From assembly GCF_004376175.1 (NCBI RefSeq), contig NZ_SNUY01000024.1, positions 1 to 32,000 on the forward strand: a DNA stretch of 32,000 bases, given 5' to 3'. The position numbers and the translations under genes are program-made. This document shows, piece by piece, positions 1,108 to 27,055 of the stretch (the stretch's first letter is position 1; each line of letters starts with the position of its first letter). Origin of the DNA: Halalkalibacterium halodurans (lineage in GTDB: Bacteria > Bacillota > Bacilli > Bacillales > Bacillaceae_D). The notes beneath the pieces were generated by a model. It made no database searches. It worked only from the letters and a program-made list of their open reading frames with translations, and was not told the DNA's origin.

Positions 1108-3000
1108 GTGTGCCCGGCATGTCTAACAGCTAGGTGGTGAAAGTCCACTACAGGCTCGGCAGTGGGAACTGTTAGCGAATGGCAAGGGTGTCTAGGGTGA
1201 CCTAGAATCTGAAGGAAGCCGGACGCAAAATCTTGGGACAACGAACAGAAACTGGATAGAAGGCTGACTGGGGACGGACGAGTTTCCCAAACAAAACGAA
1301 GTCCAACACTGCCCGAATCCCTACAGTAAATCCAGTGTCTACGAGAGGAAAGCGGTTAGACTTACCCGGGGAGATCTTACTGGGGTTTTCGAGATGAAGA
1401 AATTCCATAAGAAAACAACGAGTTCAGCGATGAGCTTGTGAACGGTAAGAAGTCAGCAGAGGTCATAGTAGTCCAATGGATGAAGGACTGAACAATAAGA
1501 ATCTTGGAACTAACGGAGGTGAGAAGTATGCATCGACCACAGAAAACATCAAAAGATGGCTACCTGCTGGAACATAAGGTGGAACCTGAACATAAAGCGG
1601 GAGCGTGCAGTATACTTCACGCTGAACCTAGAAGAAGAGATGGTGAAAGTTCAGAATGGATCAACGAGATTATTGATCGAGATAACCTCAATAGGGCTTA
1701 TAAAAGAGTCAAGAAGAACAAAGGAAAACCTGGGATAGATGGAATGACGGTAGACAAATTGCCCCTATTCTTAGCCAAAGAAAGCAGGTCTCTTGTGCGT
1801 GCCATTAAAAATGGAACGTATCAACCACAACCCGTTAAGCGGGTGGAAATCCCGAAGCCGGATGGTTCCAAAAGAAAGCTAGGAATTCCCACGGTCAAAG
1901 ACCGACTTGTCCAACAAGCGATTCTACAAGTAATTGAAAAATGGATCGACCCCCATTTCTCGGAAAACAGTTTTGGCTTCCGTCCAAATCGAAGTGCTCA
2001 CGACGCAATCGGAAAAGCAAAACGGTACTATGAAGAGGGATATCGATACGCGGTAGACATTGATATGAAGCAGTATTTCGATACAGTCAACCATGAGAAA
2101 CTCATGTACCATGTAGAGGAATTTATTCAGGACCCAAAAGTGCTTAAGCTAATTCGTAAATTCTTGCGAAGTGGCATGATGATTGGTGAAAAATATGAGC
2201 CAAGCGAGGTTGGAACTCCTCAAGGAGGAAATCTCTCACCGCTTCTCAGTAACGTCTATCTTCACCAACTGGACCTAGAACTAGAAAGGCGTGGTCACAA
2301 GTTTATCCGCTACGCAGATGATTGTAACATTTACGTGAAAAGCCAAAGGGCTGGAGAGAGAGTCCTAAAAAGCATGACAAAATTTCTTGAAGAAGAACTA
2401 AAGCTAACGGTGAATAAAGAGAAGAGCGAAGTTGGTAAACCGACGAAACGGAAGTTCTTAGGGTTCTGTATACATCCAACAAGAAATGGAGTACAAGTCC
2501 GTCCGCATAGTAAGGTGAAAAAGAGACTCGAAGAAAAAGTAAGAAAACTGACTTCCCGCAAACGCCCAGGAGAGATCCGTGAGATCATCAAAGAGGTCAA
2601 CCAAGTAACGAGGGGATGGATCAACTATTATGGAGTCGGTCTTGTGAAAACCTATGTTCAAGAAATGGATCGTTGGATACGTCGAAGGATTAGACAAATG
2701 ATCTGGAAAAGGTGGAAGAAGGTTAAAACTCGCTTTAAAAGTCTCATCAAACTAAAAATCCCCAAGCAAAAGGCTTGGGAATGGGCAAACACTCGGAAAG
2801 GCTACTGGCATATTTCAAATAGTTTCATCTTAAATACCGCAATTCCAAATCAACTTCTTGAACGGATTGGTTTACTCAATCTAACCCAACTATATTCCTC
2901 GATACATTCTAAACACACTTAACTTATTGAACCGCCGTATACGGACCCGTACGTACGGTGGTGTGAGAGGTCGGAGGCTAACCGCCTCCTCCTACTCGAT
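1108..3000 (+). mobile_element. group II intron, bacterial class C-like, full length with intron-encoded RT/maturase
   Basis: 5' end GTGTG at 1108-1112. About 420 nt of stop-rich structured sequence precede the RT ORF. Domain V is at 2931-2962: basal helix accgccgtat/gtacggtggt, AC bulge at 2951-2952, CGC triad at 2933-2935. Domain VI is at 2965-2997 with an unpaired A at 2994, 7 nt before a ...GAT 3' end. Boundaries are good to a few nt. Confidence 0.8.
1528..2922 (+). CDS. group II intron reverse transcriptase/maturase (no endonuclease domain)
   Basis: RT blocks are present (GIPTVKDRLVQQA, FGFRPNRSAHDA, YADD in IRYADDCNIYV), as is the maturase X motif RGWINYYG. The protein ends about 60 aa after X with no HNH/En domain. 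SD GGAGGTG lies 7 nt upstream of ATG 1528. The ORF-track TTG 1504 has no RBS. Confidence 0.9.
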   Translation: MHRPQKTSKDGYLLEHKVEPEHKAGACSILHAEPRRRDGESSEWINEIIDRDNLNRAYKRVKKNKGKPGIDGMTVDKLPLFLAKESRSLVRAIKNGTYQPQPVKRVEIPKPDGSKRKLGIPTVKDRLVQQAILQVIEKWIDPHFSENSFGFRPNRSAHDAIGKAKRYYEEGYRYAVDIDMKQYFDTVNHEKLMYHVEEFIQDPKVLKLIRKFLRSGMMIGEKYEPSEVGTPQGGNLSPLLSNVYLHQLDLELERRGHKFIRYADDCNIYVKSQRAGERVLKSMTKFLEEELKLTVNKEKSEVGKPTKRKFLGFCIHPTRNGVQVRPHSKVKKRLEEKVRKLTSRKRPGEIREIIKEVNQVTRGWINYYGVGLVKTYVQEMDRWIRRRIRQMIWKRWKKVKTRFKSLIKLKIPKQKAWEWANTRKGYWHISNSFILNTAIPNQLLERIGLLNLTQLYSSIHSKHT

Positions 3001-6414: not shown

Positions 6415-7650
6415 TTACACGTCTGGGTTTGGTTGAGCAGGCTCAATAATAGGCGTGTTAGGTTTGTTTTGGTCGTGTTTTCTTTGCCAAAAAATTGAAA
6501 CAAATGTGGTTGCTGCAAGAACGATCAGGCAAAGGATGAATGGATAGGTGATTTGCACATCAAACAACACACCAGCTAGAGCTGGTCCAAGTACGTTTCC
6601 AATGCTCATATAGGCATTGTTCATTCCCATCGCAAAGCCTTGTTCATTGCCTGCAAGCTTTGAAATTAAGGTCGTTAACACCGGCCGCAAAATCGAAGTA
6701 GCTAAAAAGATGAACATCGTTACCGCAAAAAACATCCCGTAGCTCGGGGCAAACAGGGAAAGTGAAAAGCCAAAAGAGGCGACACCAAGAAACAACGAGA
6801 GCACGGTACGTTCTCCGAGCCAGCGAACGAATCGTTCGACGACAAAGAGCTGAACGATCACACTAATCGTACCAATGGAAGTTAATAAGATCGCAATTTG
6901 TCCTGGCGTTGCTCCAAATTGATTATCAACAAACAAACCGAGAATGGATTCGTACGCCATTAACCCAAAACTCATAACTAGAGTGATAACGAGTGGGATA
7001 AAATAAGGCTTTTTGACGGATTATATGAGTTGTTTCACGAGCGGACTTTCGCTTACTTGTTCGGCTGTAAGTTCCTTTGCCTCTTCTGTTTGACTTTCCT
7101 TTAATAACATAATCGAGAATAGAACAGCAACCAAAGACAAAATCGCAGAAAGTAGAATCGGCATTTTCAGTCCGAAGTCTGCAAGAAAACCACCAACCCC
7201 TGGGCCAACAACAAATCCTAGAGACATGGCTGCTGATACCAAGCTATTTCCTTTCGCCCGTTCATCGATCGTTGTAATGTCTGCTACGTACGCGAAGATA
7301 GCTGGGATCAAAAGAGCTGCGCCAACACCCCCGACAACGCGAGAAGCGTAGAGCCACCAAATCGAATCAAAAAAATAAAAAACGAACATGGAAAGGGTTA
7401 CCCCGCCAAGTCCGAGAATAATCATATACCTACGCCCATATTGATCAGTCCACTTCCCTGCAACAGGTGACATGACGAGCTGTGCCCCAGCAAAAATGGC
7501 AATCATGAGACCTGCGGCGGTACCGCCTTCTCCAATTGACTCGAGGTAGGCAGGTAGAATCGGAATAATGATTCCGAAGCTGGCGATCGCAATAAACATG
7601 TTGATCATTAACAGAATCATTTTATGACGTTGTTCAGACTTCACGAGCAC
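6415..7650 (-). pseudogene. MFS drug/H+ antiporter-type transporter interrupted by a single in-frame TAA (7021-7023)
   Basis: ORFs 7021-7650 and 6415-6975 share one frame, giving ...PLVKQLI*SVKKPYFIPLVITLVMSFGLMAYE.... MFS motif A is GKWTDQYGRRYM. The joined length is 411 codons with about 12 TM segments. Confidence 0.8.
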
Positions 7651-18694: not shown

Positions 18695-18715
18695 AAATCG
18701 TAATGATAACTTTTA
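18695..18715 (+). promoter_or_regulatory. second, degenerate Zur-like box proximal to the COG0523 gene
   Basis: aaatcgtaatgataactttta has a perfect left half (AAATCGTAAT) and a degraded right half. It lies 33 nt upstream of ATG 18748. Confidence 0.5.
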
Positions 18716-18747
18716 TCAATTATTTAGACGTGGGAAAGGAGCATAAA

Positions 18748-19935
18748 ATGAACATAGAAAAAGTACCTGTAACGGTGTTAAGCGGTTATTTAGGAGCAGG
18801 AAAAACAACGGTGTTAAATCATGTGCTGGCCAATAAAGAGGGGATGAAGGTGGCGGTCATCGTCAATGACATGAGCGAAGTTAATATTGATGCCACTCTT
18901 GTCAAACAAGGAGGGTTTACTCGAACCGATGAGAAGCTTGTGGAATTACAAAACGGCTGTATTTGCTGCACACTCCGAGAAGATTTAATTATTGAAGTGG
19001 AAAAGCTTGCGCGGCTCGGGAATATTGATTACATCCTAATCGAATCCACTGGAATCTCTGAACCGATTCCGGTTGCACAAACGTTCACTTATCTTGATGA
19101 AGAACTGGGAATACATTTAGGGGACCGTTGTACACTCGATACGATGGTGACTGTCGTTGATGCCAACCGCTTTTGGGAGGATTATGAGTCAGGGGAGAGT
19201 CTTCTGGATCGGAAGCAAACGGATGATGAGGCGGATACACGGGAAGTTGTCGATTTACTTATTGACCAAATTGAATTCGCCAACGTCATTCTCTTGAATA
19301 AAGTAGATCTTGTCGAGGAAGATGACGTACGGGAACTGACTGCTGTTTTACGTAAATTAAATCCAGAGGCTGAGATTTTGCCAGTTTCCCACGGTCGTGT
19401 AGACTTGAACCGCATATTGCATACAGGTCTGTTTGATTTTGATAAGGCAAGCCAAGGTGCTGGCTGGATTAAGGAATTAAATGAGGAGCACACCCCCGAA
19501 ACAGAAGAATATGGAATTTCATCGTTTGTGTATAAACGGCAGCGGCCGTTTCATCCTGAACGATGGATGGAATGGTTGGAGAATTGGCCGCAAGAGGTAG
19601 TGCGTGCGAAAGGCTTCTTTTGGCTAGCGACGCGCAACGAAATGGCAGGGCTTATTTCTCAGGCCGGGACTTCGATTGTCATTCAAGGAGCTGGACTCTG
19701 GGTCGCAGCTTATGATAAAGAAGAGCAACAACAAGTGTTGGCTGAAGAACCAGAGTTAGCTGCGCGCTGGCACCGCAAGTACGGGGATCGAATGAATGAG
19801 CTTGTCTTTATTGGACTTGATATGGATCAAAAGGAAATCGAGAAAAGTCTTGACACCTGTTTATTAACAGACGAAGAGTTGGGACAAGACTGGTCTGCCT
19901 TACCAGATCCTCTGCCATCGTTTACTGAACAGTAA
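18748..19935 (+). CDS. zagA: COG0523 (CobW/HypB/UreG-type) zinc metallochaperone GTPase, YciC/ZagA-like
   Basis: Walker A GYLGAGKTT, metal-binding motif GCICCTLR, and a CobW C-terminal domain. SD GAAAGGAG precedes ATG 18748. Zur boxes lie upstream. Confidence 0.88.
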   Translation: MNIEKVPVTVLSGYLGAGKTTVLNHVLANKEGMKVAVIVNDMSEVNIDATLVKQGGFTRTDEKLVELQNGCICCTLREDLIIEVEKLARLGNIDYILIESTGISEPIPVAQTFTYLDEELGIHLGDRCTLDTMVTVVDANRFWEDYESGESLLDRKQTDDEADTREVVDLLIDQIEFANVILLNKVDLVEEDDVRELTAVLRKLNPEAEILPVSHGRVDLNRILHTGLFDFDKASQGAGWIKELNEEHTPETEEYGISSFVYKRQRPFHPERWMEWLENWPQEVVRAKGFFWLATRNEMAGLISQAGTSIVIQGAGLWVAAYDKEEQQQVLAEEPELAARWHRKYGDRMNELVFIGLDMDQKEIEKSLDTCLLTDEELGQDWSALPDPLPSFTEQ

Positions 19936-23318: not shown

Positions 23319-23368
23319 GTTGATTCATATTTTACAATTATTTATAATAAACTCTGTAAGCGTTTTCT
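23319..23368 (+). promoter_or_regulatory. candidate sigma-A promoter with a CcpA cre site for cstA
   Basis: TTGATT (23319-23324), an 18-nt spacer, then TATAAT (23343-23348). TGTAAGCGTTTTCT (23355-23368) fits cre WTGNAANCGNWNNCW except at the first W. Confidence 0.5.
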
Positions 23369-23410: not shown

Positions 23411-25171
23411 GTGAAAGGGGCTGTTGACGTGTACGGAGTATTACTTGCAGCTTTAGGCATGCTCGTGTTTGCGTTAGGGTATCGGTATTATTCAAAGTTT
23501 ATCGCCGAACGAATTTATCGCCTTGACCCTAATTTTGTAACGCCTGCCCATCAATTTAAGGATGGAAAAGACTTTGTCCCAACCAACAAGTTTGTTCTGT
23601 GGGGACATCATTTTACCTCAGTTGCTGGTGCCGCACCGATCGTAGGGCCAGCAATTGCGATTTATTGGGGCTGGCTACCAGCAATTCTCTGGGTCACCCT
23701 TGGGACGGTGTTTGCAGCAGGTGTTCATGACTTTGGGGCACTTGTTTTATCGGTTCGAAACAAAGGTCAATCGGTCGGAACGTTAGCCGATAAGCTCATC
23801 GGTCGTCAGGCCAAGCTGTTATTTTTATTTATTATTTTGATCCTTGTTCTTATGGTTAACGCTGTGTTTGCCTGGGTCATTTCCAACTTGTTTATCTCAA
23901 ATCCTTCAGCGGTACTGTCCGTTTTTATTCAAATTCCATTAGCAGTGTGGATTGGCTACCATGTATACAAACGACAAGGAGGAATGCTCATCCCGTCCCT
24001 TGTGGCGCTGGCGGTGATGTACGTGTCAGCCATTGTGGCAAGCCGAGTACCTGCTTTACAAATTGACCTTGTCCGCTATTTTGGTGGGGAGGAAAACATC
24101 GTAGCTTTTGGTCTTGATGGGGTCGCTATGTCGTTCTTCGTCTGGATTATCGTCCTTATGATCTACGTCTACATCGCCTCCACATTGCCGGTTTGGAAGC
24201 TGTTACAGCCACGGGATTACATTAACTCCCATCAGCTCGTCGTCGGTTTGCTTATTTTATACTTAGGTTTGCTGTTTTCTAACCCAAAGGTTACAGCACC
24301 TGCTGTCAACGGTTCACCTGATACGTCATGGTTCCCGTTGCTGTTTATTACCATTGCGTGTGGTGCGATCTCCGGGTTCCACGGTCTCGTTTCTTCTGGG
24401 ACGACATCGAAACAGCTGAATAAGGAAACAGACGCGAGGTTTGTTGGGTATTTAGGAGCAATTGGTGAGGGGCTACTCGCTCTCATCGTAATCGTCGCAG
24501 TTGCTACGTTCTTTGCATCGCCTCAAGCATTCTCCGAGGTGTACTCAAGCTTTGGTGCAGCAAATCAAGGCGGGCTAGGAAACTTCGTTCAAGCCGCAGG
24601 TCAGCTTGCGACAGGTCTCCTCATTCCGCAAGATATGGCGGCGACGATCGTGGCTGTGATCATCGTCAGCTTTGCCGCGACCACACTGGATACCTCTGTC
24701 CGCTTAATGCGATACATTATTGCTGAACTCGGTCAAGAATATAAGGTGCCAGCGTTATCTAAAACTCATGTGGCCACTTCAATTGCCGTTGTGTCAAGTG
24801 CGGCGCTCGTTCTTTTACCAGAAGGACCAAATGGATTTGGTTCAGGAGGTTACTTGCTTTGGCCACTATTTGGAACGTCAAATCAGCTTCTTGCAGGGAT
24901 TACCTTGCTGCTAATAACGATTTGGCTGAAACGTCAAGGGCGTAACTATTTACCGACTTTGATCCCGATGGTTTTCGTTTTGTTTATGACGCTGTATGCT
25001 ATGTTACAACAAGTCCTCTTTCAATGGTCACCATTTGGTGGTACGGGGACGAACATTCTCTTATTTACGCTAGGTTCAATTATTCTCGTATTTGCGTTCT
25101 GGATTGTCATTGTCGCCATCTCTGAAATTATGAAATCCAAGCCAAGGGATGATTCAAGAAAAAGTGCGTAA
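23411..25171 (+). CDS. cstA: carbon starvation protein CstA family transporter (peptide/pyruvate uptake family)
   Basis: 586-aa polytopic protein with CstA-typical N-terminal segments: YRYYSKFIAERI, WGHHFTSVAGAAPIVGPA, VHDFGAL. GTG 23429 is an alternative start, 8 nt after AAAGGGG. Confidence 0.9.
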   Translation: MKGAVDVYGVLLAALGMLVFALGYRYYSKFIAERIYRLDPNFVTPAHQFKDGKDFVPTNKFVLWGHHFTSVAGAAPIVGPAIAIYWGWLPAILWVTLGTVFAAGVHDFGALVLSVRNKGQSVGTLADKLIGRQAKLLFLFIILILVLMVNAVFAWVISNLFISNPSAVLSVFIQIPLAVWIGYHVYKRQGGMLIPSLVALAVMYVSAIVASRVPALQIDLVRYFGGEENIVAFGLDGVAMSFFVWIIVLMIYVYIASTLPVWKLLQPRDYINSHQLVVGLLILYLGLLFSNPKVTAPAVNGSPDTSWFPLLFITIACGAISGFHGLVSSGTTSKQLNKETDARFVGYLGAIGEGLLALIVIVAVATFFASPQAFSEVYSSFGAANQGGLGNFVQAAGQLATGLLIPQDMAATIVAVIIVSFAATTLDTSVRLMRYIIAELGQEYKVPALSKTHVATSIAVVSSAALVLLPEGPNGFGSGGYLLWPLFGTSNQLLAGITLLLITIWLKRQGRNYLPTLIPMVFVLFMTLYAMLQQVLFQWSPFGGTGTNILLFTLGSIILVFAFWIVIVAISEIMKSKPRDDSRKSA

Positions 25172-25183
25172 AGAACGAAAAGG

Positions 25184-25208
25184 AAGGGGTTAGTCTCACT
25201 AATCCCTT
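25184..25208 (+). other. stem-loop between cstA and the downstream small gene (possible partial terminator or processing site)
   Basis: 11-bp stem aaggggttagt / actaatccctt (one G:U pair) with a 3-nt loop. A poor U-tract (TCATTC) follows. Confidence 0.4.
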
Positions 25209-25243
25209 TCATTCATGTAGATGTAAAGGAAGGAGGGGAACCA

Positions 25244-25507
25244 ATGGAGCAAAAGCTATCGTTAAAACGATTGTTCGAACTTTATGATGAAATGTTACGT
25301 GTTCCCCATCGAGCAGAAATTCATCGGGAGCTCCAAGATGAGGATGATTTGTTTTTGCTTCTCGTCTATTCAGAGATGCTAGGCGTGCCAAATCCAGCCT
25401 TTTATTATACGCTTGAACTTTACCCGTACATCATTGAAACGTTTCACGAATGGCATTTGCGGATGGGGATGGATAAGTCACCATTGCAAGGGATTCGTTG
25501 TTGCTAA
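25244..25507 (+). CDS. small conserved protein ending in Cys-Cys-stop (resembles the family NCBI labels cory-CC-star protein; name from memory)
   Basis: Strong SD AAGGAAGGAGGGG precedes ATG 25244. The 87-aa product is predicted helical and acidic and ends ...PLQGIRCC*. It lies 18 nt upstream of the ArsA-like gene. Confidence 0.75.
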   Translation: MEQKLSLKRLFELYDEMLRVPHRAEIHRELQDEDDLFLLLVYSEMLGVPNPAFYYTLELYPYIIETFHEWHLRMGMDKSPLQGIRCC

Positions 25508-25525
25508 CTTAACGGAGAAGGATGG

Positions 25526-26473
25526 GTGCAAATGTCACATTTGTATACAAAGCACATTTATTTCATCGGTGGAAAGGGAGGCGTGGGTAAGTCAACGTCT
25601 GCTGCATCATTTGCTTGGCGTTGCGCTGAACGTGGAGAGAAAACGCTTCTCATTTCCACCGATCCAGCGCACAATTTAGGAGATCTATTTCATACAGAAA
25701 TCGGCGCAAAGCATAAAAAAATAACGGATAATCTGTTTGCGACCGAAATTGATCCAGAGCAAGAAACAAGGAGATACATTCAATCGGTTAAGGATAATTT
25801 AAGGGGCATGGTGAAATCGACGATGCTGGACGAAGTAAATCGGCAGATCGATGCCGCCGCCGCGACACCCGGTGCAGATGAAGCAGCGATGTTTAATGCG
25901 ATTTCATCCATTGTATTAGACGAACAAGGAACGTACGACAAGCTCGTTTTTGATACAGCGCCGACTGGACACACGATCCGTCTATTGACTCTTCCGGAAA
26001 TGATGGGCGTCTGGATCGATGGGATGGTGAAAAAACGGAAAAAAATAAACGAAAACTATTCCAATTTGTTAAACGATGGGGAACCAGTAGATGATCCGAT
26101 CTACGATACTCTGCAGCAGCGGAAAGAGCGATTTGCTGCCGTTCGAAACGTATTACTCGATCCGAAAAAGACGGGGTTCATGTTTGTTTTAATACCAGAG
26201 CGGCTGCCGATATTGGAAACGGAAAAAGCTGTCAAGCTCCTAGCAAAACACGATTTACATGTGGAGACATTAATCATTAATAAAATTTTGCCAGATGTAG
26301 CAGATGGCCAATTTTTAGAAAAAAGAAGACAAATAGAACAGCGATACTTGCAGCAAATTCACAACACTTTTCGCAAGCAAACGTTACTGCGCGTTCCGTT
26401 GTTTCCAGAAGACATCGGTTCAATTGAAGCGCTCTACCATTTTGCTCGTTATTTAGAACCGACAGCCTCATAA
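25526..26473 (+). CDS. ArsA/Get3 (TRC40) family ATPase, single-domain
   Basis: Deviant Walker A GGKGGVGKST, family signature TDPAHNLGD, and switch II FDTAPTGHTIRLL. 315 aa. SD GGAGAAGGA lies upstream. Start is GTG 25526 or ATG 25532. Confidence 0.88.
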   Translation: MQMSHLYTKHIYFIGGKGGVGKSTSAASFAWRCAERGEKTLLISTDPAHNLGDLFHTEIGAKHKKITDNLFATEIDPEQETRRYIQSVKDNLRGMVKSTMLDEVNRQIDAAAATPGADEAAMFNAISSIVLDEQGTYDKLVFDTAPTGHTIRLLTLPEMMGVWIDGMVKKRKKINENYSNLLNDGEPVDDPIYDTLQQRKERFAAVRNVLLDPKKTGFMFVLIPERLPILETEKAVKLLAKHDLHVETLIINKILPDVADGQFLEKRRQIEQRYLQQIHNTFRKQTLLRVPLFPEDIGSIEALYHFARYLEPTAS

Positions 26474-26479
26474 AATTTT

Positions 26480-27055
26480 TTGAAACTTCTTACGGTGTCT
26501 AACGTGACCGAATCAAGCTTGGACGCCGGCATCGTGGATCGGGTGTTTATGAGAGTCGCCGATGGATTTTTAGCGTTTCCTGATACGATTGTAGCCATTG
26601 TCTTAAGTGGTTTGCTTGGGCCTGGCATCGGCAATCTCGTCCTTGCGATCGTCATGGTGAAATGGGTCAGTTATGCCCGTCTTGTACGAAGTACGGTCCT
26701 GACTGAGGTGGAAAAAGACTATGTTGCGATCGCACGGATAAACGGTTTATCGTCAAGCAAAATTATGCGTAAACACTTATTTCCTCATATCGTTGGACAT
26801 GTATTAGTAATGGCTACTTTGGACCTTGGAAAAATCATTTTGCTGATCTCAGCTTTGTCTTACATCGGGCTTGGCGCCCAACCGCCGACTCCTGAGTGGG
26901 GGGCGATGCTCAATGATTCTCGTCCTTATTTTCAGTCGATGCCGCAACTAATGATCTATCCTGGTCTCGCGATCGTCATTGTTGTGTTGCTTACCAATAT
27001 GCTGGGGGATTACTTACGAGATTATTTTGATGTGAAGAAGGAGGTGGGACAATGA
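26480..27055 (+). pseudogene. 5'-truncated ABC permease (DppC/OppC/NikC type)
   Basis: The BPD_transp_1 core is present from ...IVDRVFMRVADGFLAFPDTIVAIVL to the C-terminus. About 90-100 N-terminal residues, including TM1-2, are missing. There is no SD before TTG 26480, and the frame starts 7 nt after the ArsA-like stop. Confidence 0.75.

What the first reader, a model, noticed from the sequence alone, without database searches (positions are those of the whole stretch)
23411..26473. CstA transporter, Cys-Cys-stop mini-protein and Get3/ArsA-like ATPase: a module with no assigned function
Three same-strand genes sit close together with gaps of 72 and 18 nt. (a) A 586-aa CstA-family transporter. 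(b) An 87-aa, helix-rich acidic protein with a very strong SD whose last residues are ...GIRCC*. (c) A 315-aa single-domain ATPase carrying the ArsA/Get3 signatures GKGGVGKST, DPAHN and DTAPTGHT. The usual ArsA partners (arsB, arsD, arsR, arsC) are all absent. A hairpin without a good U-tract (25184-25208) separates cstA from the two small genes, which would allow differential expression. Established knowledge supplies three points. ArsA-family ATPases either bind metalloids through cysteines or, as Get3, capture C-terminal segments of client proteins. CstA-type transporters are often accompanied by a small partner protein of unknown role. I also recall that NCBI labels small CC-terminated proteins next to ArsA-like genes as cory-CC-star protein, with no function attached. 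My inference is that the CC-tail protein is the client or cofactor of the ATPase, through a metal or metalloid-thiolate or a modified C-terminus. The pair may then assemble, gate or regulate the CstA transporter under carbon starvation.
Basis: partly seen in the sequence, partly recalled or inferred. Interest (0 to 1): 0.8.

Follow-up and report, generated by a model that had tools for sequence, protein, structure and literature searches.

The report
Known CstA transporter–microprotein–ATPase gene trio
A carbon-starvation transporter gene, a tiny protein ending in two cysteines and a Get3/ArsA-type ATPase form a real three-gene unit found from bacteria to archaea; it was already described by comparative genomics in 2010 (including in this species), and I found no experimental test of what the ATPase or the two cysteines do.

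Summary
cstA, an 87-aa ORF ending GIRCC* and a single-domain ArsA/Get3-like ATPase lie on one strand with gaps of 72 and 18 nt. The organism is Halalkalibacterium (Bacillus) halodurans. The small protein scores above NCBI's cut-off for 'cory-CC-star protein' (NF041419); Pfam calls it DUF7990 (PF25952). Relatives were confirmed at 591 places in species-representative genomes. In every one of 87 loci with enough flank, the three genes co-occur on one strand, with CstA either upstream or downstream of the pair. No fourth gene is conserved. The module is not new. Castillo & Saier (2010) described cstA-cstX-arsA-homologue operons, listed the B. halodurans C-125 ATPase, and proposed that the ATPase energises CstA with CstX as linker. 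New here: tandem two-domain DUF7990 proteins are followed by two ATPase domains, which argues for 1:1 pairing. The ATPase has no conserved cysteine and lacks the Get3 CXXC. H68, H71, C86 and C87 are invariant across phyla in the CC-star subfamily. Haloarchaeal DUF7990 lacks CC yet keeps ATPase and CstA. The unrelated CstA partners YbdD/YjiX also end in CC without any ArsA-like ATPase. So the tail is not established as the ATPase's handle. The mechanism remains untested.

The parts
23320..23348 (+). sigma-70-like promoter candidate upstream of cstA (TTGATT-17-TATAAT)
   Evidence: Best consensus match in the region, 10 of 12 positions. It is a consensus match only. The count of such sites in the region is not above shuffles.
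23355..23368 (+). cre-like (CcpA operator-like) palindrome TGTAAGCGTTTTCT just downstream of the -10 box
   Evidence: It is the only match to TGWAANCGNTNWCA (at most 1 mismatch) in the 32-kb window. By count it is not above chance (3 expected). The position is suggestive of catabolite repression. This is inference.
23411..25171 (+). cstA: CstA-family permease (586 aa as ORF; probable true start GTG 23429, 580 aa)
   Evidence: PF02554 at 531 bits. It scores only 245 bits against the 1188 cut-off of the E. coli CstA equivalog, so the substrate is not assigned. There are 120 columns at 95% or more identity over 76 module-linked CstA proteins, including GHHF, GVHD and ACGAISGFH.
25182..25210 (+). 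13-bp stem-loop between cstA and cstX, without a U-tract
   Evidence: the 86-nt segment folds at -21.2 kcal/mol with z = -1.9. This is marginal. Its role as attenuator, stabiliser or processing site is not tested.
25230..25238 (+). Shine-Dalgarno sequence AAGGAGGGG of the small ORF
   Evidence: Read directly from the sequence. It ends 5 nt before ATG 25244 (core GGAGG 25232-25236, 7 nt before it).
25244..25507 (+). cstX / cory-CC-star protein (DUF7990, 87 aa): predicted helical hairpin plus flexible tail ending H68-x-x-H71...R85-C86-C87-stop
   Evidence: NF041419 at 128 bits against a cut-off of 80. The precomputed Pfam family is PF25952, DUF7990. All 240 listed subfamily members end in CC. 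23 columns are at 95% or more identity over 80 sequences from loci of at least 4 bacterial phyla. AlphaFold2 with 127 sequences gives helices 7-46 and 51-73 and a tail at 74-87, with pLDDT 78 and pTM 0.40.
25526..26473 (+). single-domain ArsA/Get3-class (SIMIBI, deviant Walker A) ATPase, 315 aa as ORF (probable start ATG 25532, 313 aa)
   Evidence: TIGR00345 at 310 bits and PF02374 at 291 bits. The closest solved structure is archaeal Get3 3zq6, 232 bits. GGKGGVGK, DPAH, D-T-x-P-x-G-x-T and N252 are conserved (at least 95% of 85 partners; N252 in all 85). It has one Cys (C33). The Get3 CXXC position reads DGQFL.
26502..26526 (.). 3' boundary of the module: junction of a strain-specific deletion of about 3.16 kb
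   Evidence: Sister contigs L103 and L104 (99.7% identical) carry SBP_bac_5, permease and permease genes here. The window resumes inside the second permease.

Best explanation
This is a three-component CstA-type transport system. It consists of the CstA permease, the microprotein CstX (DUF7990, 'cory-CC-star') and a homodimeric Get3/ArsA-class ATPase.

Proposed mechanism, with steps marked as shown or inferred:
1. The three genes are one functional unit. This is shown by conservation.
2. One CstX helical hairpin binds one ATPase protomer. This is inferred from co-duplication.
3. The flexible C-terminal tail, carrying the invariant H68/H71/C86/C87 set, works at CstA or at a metal or redox centre. 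This is inferred.
4. ATP-driven closing and opening of the ATPase dimer is passed through CstX to the permease. It thereby drives or gates uptake of a carbon-starvation substrate (pyruvate or peptides in characterised relatives). This is inferred by analogy to ArsA-ArsB and is the hypothesis of Castillo & Saier 2010.

It is not an arsenic pump and not a classical tail-anchor targeting factor.
For: Linkage:
- In the best 80 loci (by record title 36 Gemmatimonadota, 38 Gammaproteobacteria, 5 Bacillota, 1 Acidobacteriota), every locus with enough flank has CstA, CstX and the ATPase on one strand.
- Two gene orders occur: CstA-CstX-ATPase and CstX-ATPase-CstA.
- Haloarchaeal and other non-CC loci keep the same trio.
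- ORF clustering of 87 loci finds only these three families conserved, in 84-87 loci each.

Pairing of CstX with the ATPase:
- Three independent loci with a tandem two-domain DUF7990 protein are followed by two ArsA-like domains.
- The two domains are fused into one 690-aa protein in L084 and are two adjacent genes in L087 and L088.
- L085 has two DUF7990 genes flanking one ATPase gene.

Competent ATPase:
- The Walker A motif with the signature Lys, switch I DPAH, DTAPTGHT and N252 are conserved (at least 95% of 85 partners; N252 in all 85).

Not ArsA and not Get3:
- 38 of 85 partners have no cysteine at all, and no alignment column reaches 20% Cys.
- The CXXC position reads (A)DGxFL.
- No ars-family Pfam hit among the other ORFs scanned in the window.

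Precedents for a small partner being needed by CstA:
- E. coli ybdD deletion reduces CstA-dependent pyruvate uptake as much as cstA deletion does (Hwang 2018, PMC5847655).
- Independent published proposal: Castillo & Saier 2010 (PMC2963123) reported co-evolution of the CstA, CstX and ArsA-homologue trees.
Against: - No experiment on any member was found in the searchable literature.
- E. coli CstA and BtsT are annotated in RefSeq as pyruvate transporter and pyruvate/proton symporter, and no ArsA-like gene lies next to them in the regions examined. ATP coupling is therefore not intrinsic to the family.
- From general knowledge, SIMIBI ATPases act more often as targeting factors, assembly factors, metallochaperones or switches than as transport energisers.
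- The CstX model has low pTM (0.40) and no structural neighbour. The binding mode is therefore guesswork.
- The CC tail is dispensable in whole clades. Any mechanism built on it cannot be general.
Confidence: 0.45

Rival explanations
1. Regulatory switch rather than energiser. The HxxH...CC site of CstX senses a metal ion or the thiol redox state. Together with the nucleotide state of the ATPase dimer it opens or closes CstA. Transport itself remains ion-coupled.
For: - H68, H71, C86 and C87 are the only fully invariant residues in a 33-sequence diverse alignment.
- They co-vary as a set: 74 HxWH+CC against about 149 sequences with neither.
- DUF466 partners of CstA end in CC, and as Cys-Sec in Campylobacter (Haft 2022 preprint). 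Sec usually marks redox chemistry; that last point is general knowledge.
- CstA relatives are annotated as proton symporters without an ATPase.
Against: - The covariation is largely one clade against others, so it is not phylogenetically independent.
- Seven sequences have CC without the His pair.
- Non-CC clades keep the ATPase.
- No metal or redox data exist.
Confidence: 0.2
2. Biogenesis factor. The Get3-like ATPase chaperones or inserts CstX and/or helps assemble the CstA complex, as Get3 does for tail-anchored proteins. It plays no part in the transport cycle.
For: - The closest solved structures are archaeal Get3 proteins: 3zq6 at 232 bits and 3ug6 at 202 bits.
- CstX has an amphipathic or hydrophobic stretch, LFLLLVYSEMLGV, that could occupy a hydrophobic groove.
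Against: - CstX has no TM segment. Its maximum KD19 is 1.19 and its pI is 5.1.
- The Get3 CXXC zinc motif is absent.
- Strict 1:1 co-duplication fits a stable partner better than a transient client.
Confidence: 0.1
3. Metal-handling system. CstX is a small metal carrier and the ATPase acts as a nucleotide-dependent metallochaperone, as CooC, HypB and COG0523 proteins do. It serves CstA or a substrate that CstA moves.
For: - There is a parallel trio in Enterobacterales: btsT, then yjiX (ending RCC), then yjiA, a COG0523 GTPase with a CXCC metal motif (Haas 2009, PMC2770081).
- A COG0523 gene lies beside DUF7990 in haloarchaeal loci and 3.5 kb upstream in the window.
- CstX has a His2Cys2-type ligand set.
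Against: - COG0523 is absent from the other 85 of the 87 loci.
- Most DUF466 loci examined have no NTPase.
- The His pair is not invariant in DUF466.
- No link between CstA and metals was found in the papers read here.
Confidence: 0.1
4. A divergent arsenite or antimonite resistance ATPase that uses the CC tail of the small protein as an ArsD-like metalloid donor.
For: - The DTAPTGHT motif is shared with ArsA.
- ArsD uses vicinal Cys pairs; this is general knowledge.
Against: - No ars-family hit was found among the window ORFs scanned or as a conserved neighbour in 87 loci.
- The ArsA metalloid cysteines are absent (Castillo & Saier).
- ArsA equivalog scores are far below cut-off.
Confidence: 0.02

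Closest known systems
cstA-cstX-arsA-homologue operons (Castillo & Saier 2010, Int J Microbiol, PMC2963123)
   Same: It is the same three genes: a CstA permease, a CstX of about 90 aa, and a single-domain ArsA homologue of about 300-330 aa, with no arsR or arsB. The paper lists Bha1 of Bacillus halodurans C-125 (313 aa, cluster 17). The window is an instance of this operon type.
   Different: Nothing differs in kind. The paper did not mention the Cys-Cys terminus, the HxxH pair or YbdD/YjiX, and it called CstX a single-TMS protein. Hydropathy here does not support a TM segment.
ArsA-ArsB (with ArsD) arsenite pump
   Same: An ATPase of the same family is associated with a secondary-type permease. 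A small protein with vicinal cysteines (ArsD) feeds the ATPase. The DTAPTGHT motif is shared.
   Different: The ATPase here is single-domain rather than an A1-A2 fusion. It has no metalloid-binding cysteines. No ars genes are nearby. The permease is CstA, which is unrelated to ArsB or Acr3. CstX is unrelated to ArsD.
CstA/BtsT with YbdD/YjiX (DUF466, PF04328; NCBI name 'CstA-like transporter-associated (seleno)protein')
   Same: A microprotein is encoded directly after a CstA-family permease and ends in Cys-Cys-COOH, often Arg-Cys-Cys as in the window. YbdD is needed for CstA-dependent pyruvate uptake.
   Different: No detectable homology exists. Only the last 8 residues align, with hhalign probabilities of 1-7%, and there is no PF04328 hit. 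DUF466 loci have no ArsA-like ATPase. The two microprotein types never co-occur in the 87 loci. In Enterobacterales a COG0523 GTPase (yjiA) follows yjiX instead.
Get3/TRC40 with its Get1/Get2 (WRB/CAML) receptor
   Same: The ATPase is closest in sequence to archaeal Get3 structures. The predicted helical hairpin of CstX recalls the Get1 coiled-coil hairpin that docks on Get3. That resemblance is from general knowledge and is not a test.
   Different: There is no CXXC zinc site. There is no tail-anchored client. CstX is soluble and acidic. Foldseek finds no similarity to any solved structure, Get1 included.

Membership tests
cory-CC-star protein (NCBIfam NF041419) / DUF7990 (Pfam PF25952) | HMM score above the curated cut-off | tested here: met
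   128.3 bits against a cut-off of 80, E = 8e-38, covering residues 9-87. All homologues carry the precomputed PF25952.
cory-CC-star protein (NCBIfam NF041419) / DUF7990 (Pfam PF25952) | C-terminus Cys-Cys followed by stop | tested here: met
   The window protein ends GIRCC*. 120 of 120 and 120 of 120 listed relatives end in CC.
cstA-cstX-arsA-homologue operon (Castillo & Saier 2010) | CstA permease, ~90-aa CstX and single-domain ~300-330-aa ArsA homologue in one gene cluster | tested here: met
   for the window. for 80 loci. for archaeal and other loci. The paper lists a 313-aa B. halodurans C-125 ATPase.
cstA-cstX-arsA-homologue operon (Castillo & Saier 2010) | No arsenic-resistance genes (arsR, arsB, acr3, arsC, arsD) in the cluster | tested here: met
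   Pfam scans of 29 of the 30 other window ORFs of at least 110 aa. Only three conserved families in 87 loci.
ArsA arsenical pump-driving ATPase | Two homologous halves A1-A2 in one ~580-aa chain; equivalog HMM score | tested here: not met
   315 aa with one domain. TIGR04291 scores 160 bits against 650, and NF041417 scores 170.5 against 800.
ArsA arsenical pump-driving ATPase | Metalloid-binding cysteines (E. coli C113, C172, C422) | tested here: not met
   The window protein has one Cys (C33). 38 of 85 partners have none, and no column reaches 20% Cys. The paper reports the same for single-domain homologues.
ArsA arsenical pump-driving ATPase | DTAPTGHT signal-transduction motif and deviant Walker A | tested here: met
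Get3/TRC40 tail-anchored protein targeting factor | CXXC motif forming the zinc site at the dimer interface | tested here: not met
   The aligned position reads DGQFL against CEFC in 3zq6. It reads (A)DGxFL in 85 partners.
Get3/TRC40 tail-anchored protein targeting factor | Client with a single C-terminal transmembrane segment | tested here: not met
   CstX has a maximum 19-residue hydropathy of 1.19 and the tail MGMDKSPLQGIRCC is polar.
Get3/TRC40 tail-anchored protein targeting factor | Hydrophobic client groove in the closed dimer; Get1/Get2-type membrane receptor | not testable with these tools
   No complex prediction was available and no model coordinates were returned.
YbdD/YjiX family (DUF466, PF04328) | Match to the family profile | tested here: not met
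   No PF04328 hit even at E = 10. hhalign aligns only the last 8 residues, with probabilities of 7% and 1%.
YbdD/YjiX family (DUF466, PF04328) | Encoded next to a CstA-family permease and ending in Cys-Cys (or Cys-Sec) | tested here: met
   for the window. for DUF466. The function may therefore be analogous, but the protein is not a family member.

The most novel reading that the evidence does not exclude
The invariant H68-x-x-H71 ... C86-C87-COOH set of CstX forms a metal or redox centre. Two CstX tails per ATPase dimer would supply in trans the bridging ligands that other SIMIBI NTPases carry in cis. Examples from general knowledge are the Get3 Zn-CXXC, the CooC Ni-CXC and the NifH/Nbp35 Fe-S cysteines; the COG0523 CXCC motif is cited. 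Dimer closure, and through it CstA activity, would then depend on metal or thiol status. The same logic would explain the CC or Cys-Sec tails of YbdD/YjiX and the yjiX-yjiA pairing. CC-tail microproteins would then be a general class of metal- or redox-coupled transporter subunits.
Probability: 0.12. Interest if true: 0.75.

Novelty: already known. Interest (0 to 1): 0.4.

Why it matters
If the ATPase really drives or gates CstA, this would be a second, arsenic-independent case of a Get3/ArsA-class ATPase coupled to a secondary-type permease. It would also assign a job to many bacterial and archaeal 'Get3-like' genes that are annotated only by similarity.

The Cys-Cys-COOH end shared by two unrelated CstA partner families is an unexplained convergent feature. 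One of those families, YbdD, is already known to be required for pyruvate uptake. It can be tested directly with point mutants.

Many organism names among the hits are those of halophilic or alkaliphilic genera (Halalkalibacterium, Salinicoccus, Idiomarina, Halomonas, Halobacteria). This is an unquantified impression from names and may be sampling bias. It would fit a benefit of ATP coupling where the proton-motive force is poor.

Tried and rejected
- Remote homology between cory-CC-star and YbdD/YjiX was tested and rejected. Profile-sequence and profile-profile hhalign align only the 8-residue tail, and there is no PF04328 hit.
- Structure-based annotation of CstX failed. The first AF2 model was poor (pLDDT 65). 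The second, with 127 sequences, reached pLDDT 78 but pTM 0.40. Foldseek against the PDB gave no significant match for either model.
- A conserved link to COG0523/CobW was checked because such a gene lies upstream in the window and next to haloarchaeal loci. It is absent from the other 85 of the 87 loci, so it is not a general component.
- A fourth conserved gene (CstY-like, DUF8052) was sought. It occurs only in a few non-CC loci and not in the window.
- A Cys in CstA that might pair with the CC tail was sought. Column 463 is Cys in 63 of 76 module CstAs and in two DUF466-type CstAs, but it lies in a hydrophobic, presumably membrane-spanning stretch and is Ser in the window's lineage. No inference was drawn.
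- The first wide alignment (A2) was too divergent for the genome scan, so the narrower A3 was used.
- The arsenic-pump reading was rejected.
- The tail-anchored-client reading was rejected.
- Literature searches for 'cory-CC-star', DUF7990, PF25952 and CstA+Get3 found nothing beyond Castillo & Saier 2010.

Full report
**1. Observation**

The window carries three same-strand ORFs exactly as described.
- 23411-25171: 586 aa.
- 25244-25507: 87 aa, ending ...PLQGIRCC*.
- 25526-26473: 315 aa.

The gaps are 72 and 18 nt. The first ORF is a CstA-family permease (PF02554, 531 bits). It scores only 245 bits against the 1188-bit cut-off of the E. coli pyruvate transporter equivalog, so its substrate is not assigned.

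The small ORF scores 128.3 bits against NCBIfam NF041419 'cory-CC-star protein', whose cut-off is 80. Its precomputed Pfam family is PF25952, shown as DUF7990.

The third ORF is a TRC40/GET3/ArsA-family ATPase (TIGR00345, 310 bits; PF02374, 291 bits). It falls far below both ArsA equivalog cut-offs.

An identical small protein is on record from Halalkalibacterium halodurans.

Likely start-codon corrections are GTG 23429 for cstA and ATG 25532 for the ATPase.

The inter-genic hairpin (25182-25210) exists but is only marginally better than shuffled sequence.

Pfam scans of 29 of the 30 other ORFs of at least 110 aa show no ars-family hit.

**2. The small ORF is a real, constrained protein**

Thirty-six Bacillales homologues are 67-85% identical to it, with 30 invariant columns.

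A profile search of 1.84 billion representative proteins finds only 152 clusters, so the family is small. A profile of diverse members finds 2105 proteins clustered at 90% identity.

All 120 best hits to the window protein and all 120 best hits to the diverse profile end in Cys-Cys. The residue before the pair varies: R, S, H, K, P or G.

Over 80 sequences from loci of at least four bacterial phyla, 23 columns are at least 95% identical. They include H68, W70, H71, R73, C86 and C87. In a 33-sequence diverse alignment the only fully invariant residues are the two His and the two Cys.

**3. The three genes are one unit**

By their record titles, the 80 best loci comprise 36 Gemmatimonadota, 38 Gammaproteobacteria, 5 Bacillota and 1 Acidobacteriota. 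tblastn with the window's CstA and ATPase finds both genes on the same strand in every locus that has enough flanking sequence. The five exceptions all end at a contig edge.

Two gene orders occur.
- CstA-CstX-ATPase, in Gammaproteobacteria, Bacillota, the one Acidobacteriota locus and a few Gemmatimonadota.
- CstX-ATPase-CstA, in most Gemmatimonadota.

CstX-then-ATPase is the constant core, and linkage survives rearrangement.

Clustering all ORFs of 87 loci yields only these three families as conserved neighbours, each in 84-87 loci.

**4. Prior art**

Castillo & Saier (2010, PMC2963123) described 26 bacterial and archaeal clusters with cstA, a ~90-aa gene they named cstX and a single-domain ArsA homologue. 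They listed a 313-aa ATPase of Bacillus halodurans C-125. They showed congruent trees, noted the absence of the ArsA cysteines and of arsR, and proposed that the ATPase energises CstA with CstX as linker.

The window is therefore an instance of a published operon type. They did not mention the Cys-Cys end. They also called CstX a single-TMS protein, which hydropathy does not support (maximum 19-residue value 1.19, pI 5.1).

I found no experimental paper on the system.

**5. What the ATPase is and is not**

Its closest solved relatives are archaeal Get3 proteins: 3zq6 at 232 bits and 3ug6 at 202 bits. E. coli ArsA scores 185 bits.

The catalytic motifs are conserved (at least 95%) in 85 module-linked ATPases: GGKGGVGK, DPAH, D-T-x-P-x-G-x-T and N252.

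The features that define the two characterised functions are absent.
- 38 of the 85 ATPases have no cysteine at all, and no alignment column reaches 20% Cys.
- The Get3 zinc CXXC position reads (A)DGxFL throughout.

It is thus a competent dimerising SIMIBI ATPase with a different partner logic.

**6. Evidence that CstX pairs 1:1 with the ATPase**

A profile of the distant, non-CC branch retrieves 6638 proteins carrying PF25952. The top hits are tandem two-domain DUF7990 proteins.

In the three loci that could be read, each is followed by two ArsA-like domains.
- In L084 the two domains are fused into one 690-aa protein.
- In L087 and L088 they are two adjacent paralogous genes.

Another locus has two DUF7990 genes flanking one ATPase gene.

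Matching duplication of both partners is hard to explain unless one DUF7990 domain binds one ATPase domain.

AlphaFold2 with 127 sequences predicts a helical hairpin (helices 7-46 and 51-73, with the turn at the invariant G47-x-P-x-P51) and an extended tail at 74-87. pLDDT is 78 but pTM is only 0.40. That pattern is typical of a subunit that folds on a partner. Foldseek finds no similar solved structure.

**7. What the Cys-Cys tail is linked to**

Three observations separate the tail from the ATPase.

(a) Haloarchaeal DUF7990 proteins end QYHF or QYHFH. They have Glu at both His positions (FExWERRMW). Their loci are nevertheless DUF7990-ATPase-CstA. The tandem forms also lack CC.

(b) E. coli YbdD and YjiX, and relatives from Burkholderia, Paracoccus, Xanthomonas, Pseudomonas, Neisseria and Bacillus thuringiensis, are encoded right after CstA-family permeases and end in CC. 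One Acinetobacter sequence ends CPC. They are not detectably homologous to DUF7990. hhalign aligns only the last eight residues, with probabilities of 1-7%, and there is no PF04328 hit. Their loci have no ArsA-like gene. Haft's preprint notes the RCC ends and a Lys-Cys-Sec variant in Campylobacter. Hwang et al. showed that ybdD deletion phenocopies cstA deletion for pyruvate uptake.

(c) DUF466 genes are absent from all 87 DUF7990 loci. The two microproteins are therefore alternatives.

The simplest reading is that the DUF7990 hairpin is the ATPase-directed part. The CC end would be a CstA-directed or chemistry-directed part that evolved twice.

Within DUF7990 the His pair and the CC pair co-occur.
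- 74 sequences have HxWH plus CC.
- About 149 have neither.
- 7 have CC without the His pair.
- 10 have the His pair without CC, and the three examples printed are truncated or frameshifted.

This hints at one His2Cys2 site. The comparison is essentially between clades, however, so it is not independent evidence. In DUF466 the His pair is common but not invariant.

**8. A parallel trio**

In E. coli and Rahnella the order is btsT (a CstA paralogue), then yjiX (DUF466, ending RCC), then yjiA. The Rahnella GTPase was confirmed here as a CobW/COG0523 protein. [quoted passage not shown]

So a CstA-type permease, a CC-tail microprotein and a SIMIBI-class NTPase come together at least twice, with unrelated microproteins and different NTPase families.

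A COG0523 gene also lies 3.5 kb upstream in the window and beside haloarchaeal DUF7990 genes. It is absent from the other 85 of the 87 loci. I treat this as a lead and not as a component.

**9. Mechanism**

Best supported (confidence 0.45) is the Castillo-Saier type model, refined as follows.
- The ATPase is a homodimer.
- Each protomer holds one CstX hairpin.
- Nucleotide-driven closure of the dimer is transmitted through CstX to CstA, driving or gating uptake.
- The tail acts at the permease or at a metal or redox centre.

Shown: the linkage, the co-duplication, the intact ATPase motifs, and the absence of the ArsA and Get3 signature sites. Inferred: every physical contact and the direction of coupling.

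Rivals:
- a metal or redox switch (0.2);
- a Get3-like biogenesis role (0.1);
- a metallochaperone system (0.1);
- arsenic resistance (0.02).

**10. Verdict**

The kind of system is already known from comparative genomics and from curated family models, and the window is an ordinary member. What remains open, and testable, is the mechanism and the meaning of the convergent Cys-Cys end.

**11. Other things seen**

- Directly after the ATPase gene the window has lost about 3.16 kb relative to 99.7%-identical sister contigs. The loss removes a substrate-binding protein gene, one permease gene and the 5' part of a second permease gene of an ABC transporter. ORF 26480-27055 is the remnant.
- A cre-like palindrome follows the putative -10 box of cstA.
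- A group II intron lies at 1191-3000.
- An MFS gene is split into two ORFs.
- Many CC-star proteins are misnamed 'DNA helicase' in public databases.

Noticed in passing
window 26480-27055, junction at 26502-26526: The ORF right after the ATPase gene is the C-terminal remnant of an ABC permease. Sister H. halodurans contigs (L103, L104; 99.7% identical) carry SBP_bac_5, permease and permease genes here. The window has a deletion of about 3.16 kb that removes the binding protein, the first permease and the 5' part of the second.
   Followed up: yes
window 23355-23368: A cre-like palindrome, TGTAAGCGTTTTCT, lies 6 nt after the putative -10 box of the cstA promoter. It is the only such match in the window, but by count it is not above chance. 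It would fit catabolite repression of a carbon-starvation operon.
   Followed up: partly
window 18703-19935; L082/L083 3516-4877; L089 275-321; L097 3718-4689: COG0523/CobW-family GTPase genes recur near CstA-microprotein loci. One lies 3.5 kb upstream in the window. One is divergently adjacent to DUF7990 in haloarchaea. yjiA lies directly after yjiX in E. coli and Rahnella. None is present in the other 85 of the 87 DUF7990 loci.
   Followed up: partly
L084 5001-7622; L087 5001-7730; L088 579-3195: Tandem two-domain DUF7990 proteins are followed by two ArsA-like domains, fused in L084 and as two genes in L087 and L088. All three loci also share a divergently transcribed protein of about 200 aa with a hydrophobic N-terminus.
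   Followed up: partly
L082 8358-9014; L085 1385-1894: A DUF8052 protein (169-218 aa) is encoded next to CstA in non-CC loci (haloarchaea and an unidentified bacterium). It may be the 'CstY' of Castillo & Saier. It is absent from the window and from the CC-star loci.
   Followed up: partly
L043 4339-8941: One Natronospirillum locus has CstA paralogues on both sides of the CstX-ATPase pair.
   Followed up: no
L070 5243-5970: In Oceanobacillus indicireducens about 730 nt without a conserved ORF separate cstA from the CC-star gene, against 72 nt in the window. Bacillus loci L068 and L078 also show gaps of about 450 nt.
   Followed up: no
window 1191-3000: A group II intron is present. Rfam domains match at 1191-1360, 1416-1488 and 2930-3000, and a reverse transcriptase/maturase ORF lies at 1504-2922.
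   Followed up: no
window 6415-7650 (- strand): An MFS transporter is split into two adjacent ORFs (6415-6975 and 7021-7650). It is probably a frameshifted or interrupted gene.
   Followed up: no
protein records P0002, P0003, P0389, P0409, P0448 and others: Many cory-CC-star proteins of about 90 aa are named 'DNA helicase' in UniRef or NCBI records. The name is not credible for a helical-hairpin microprotein and is probably a propagated annotation error.
   Followed up: no
window CstA residue 463 (about 24797-24799): One column in a hydrophobic, presumably membrane-spanning stretch of CstA is Cys in 63 of 76 module-linked CstAs and in the E. coli and B. thuringiensis CstAs. It is Ser in the window and in the other Bacillaceae, and Y, G or T in non-CC loci. 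No meaning is assigned.
   Followed up: partly
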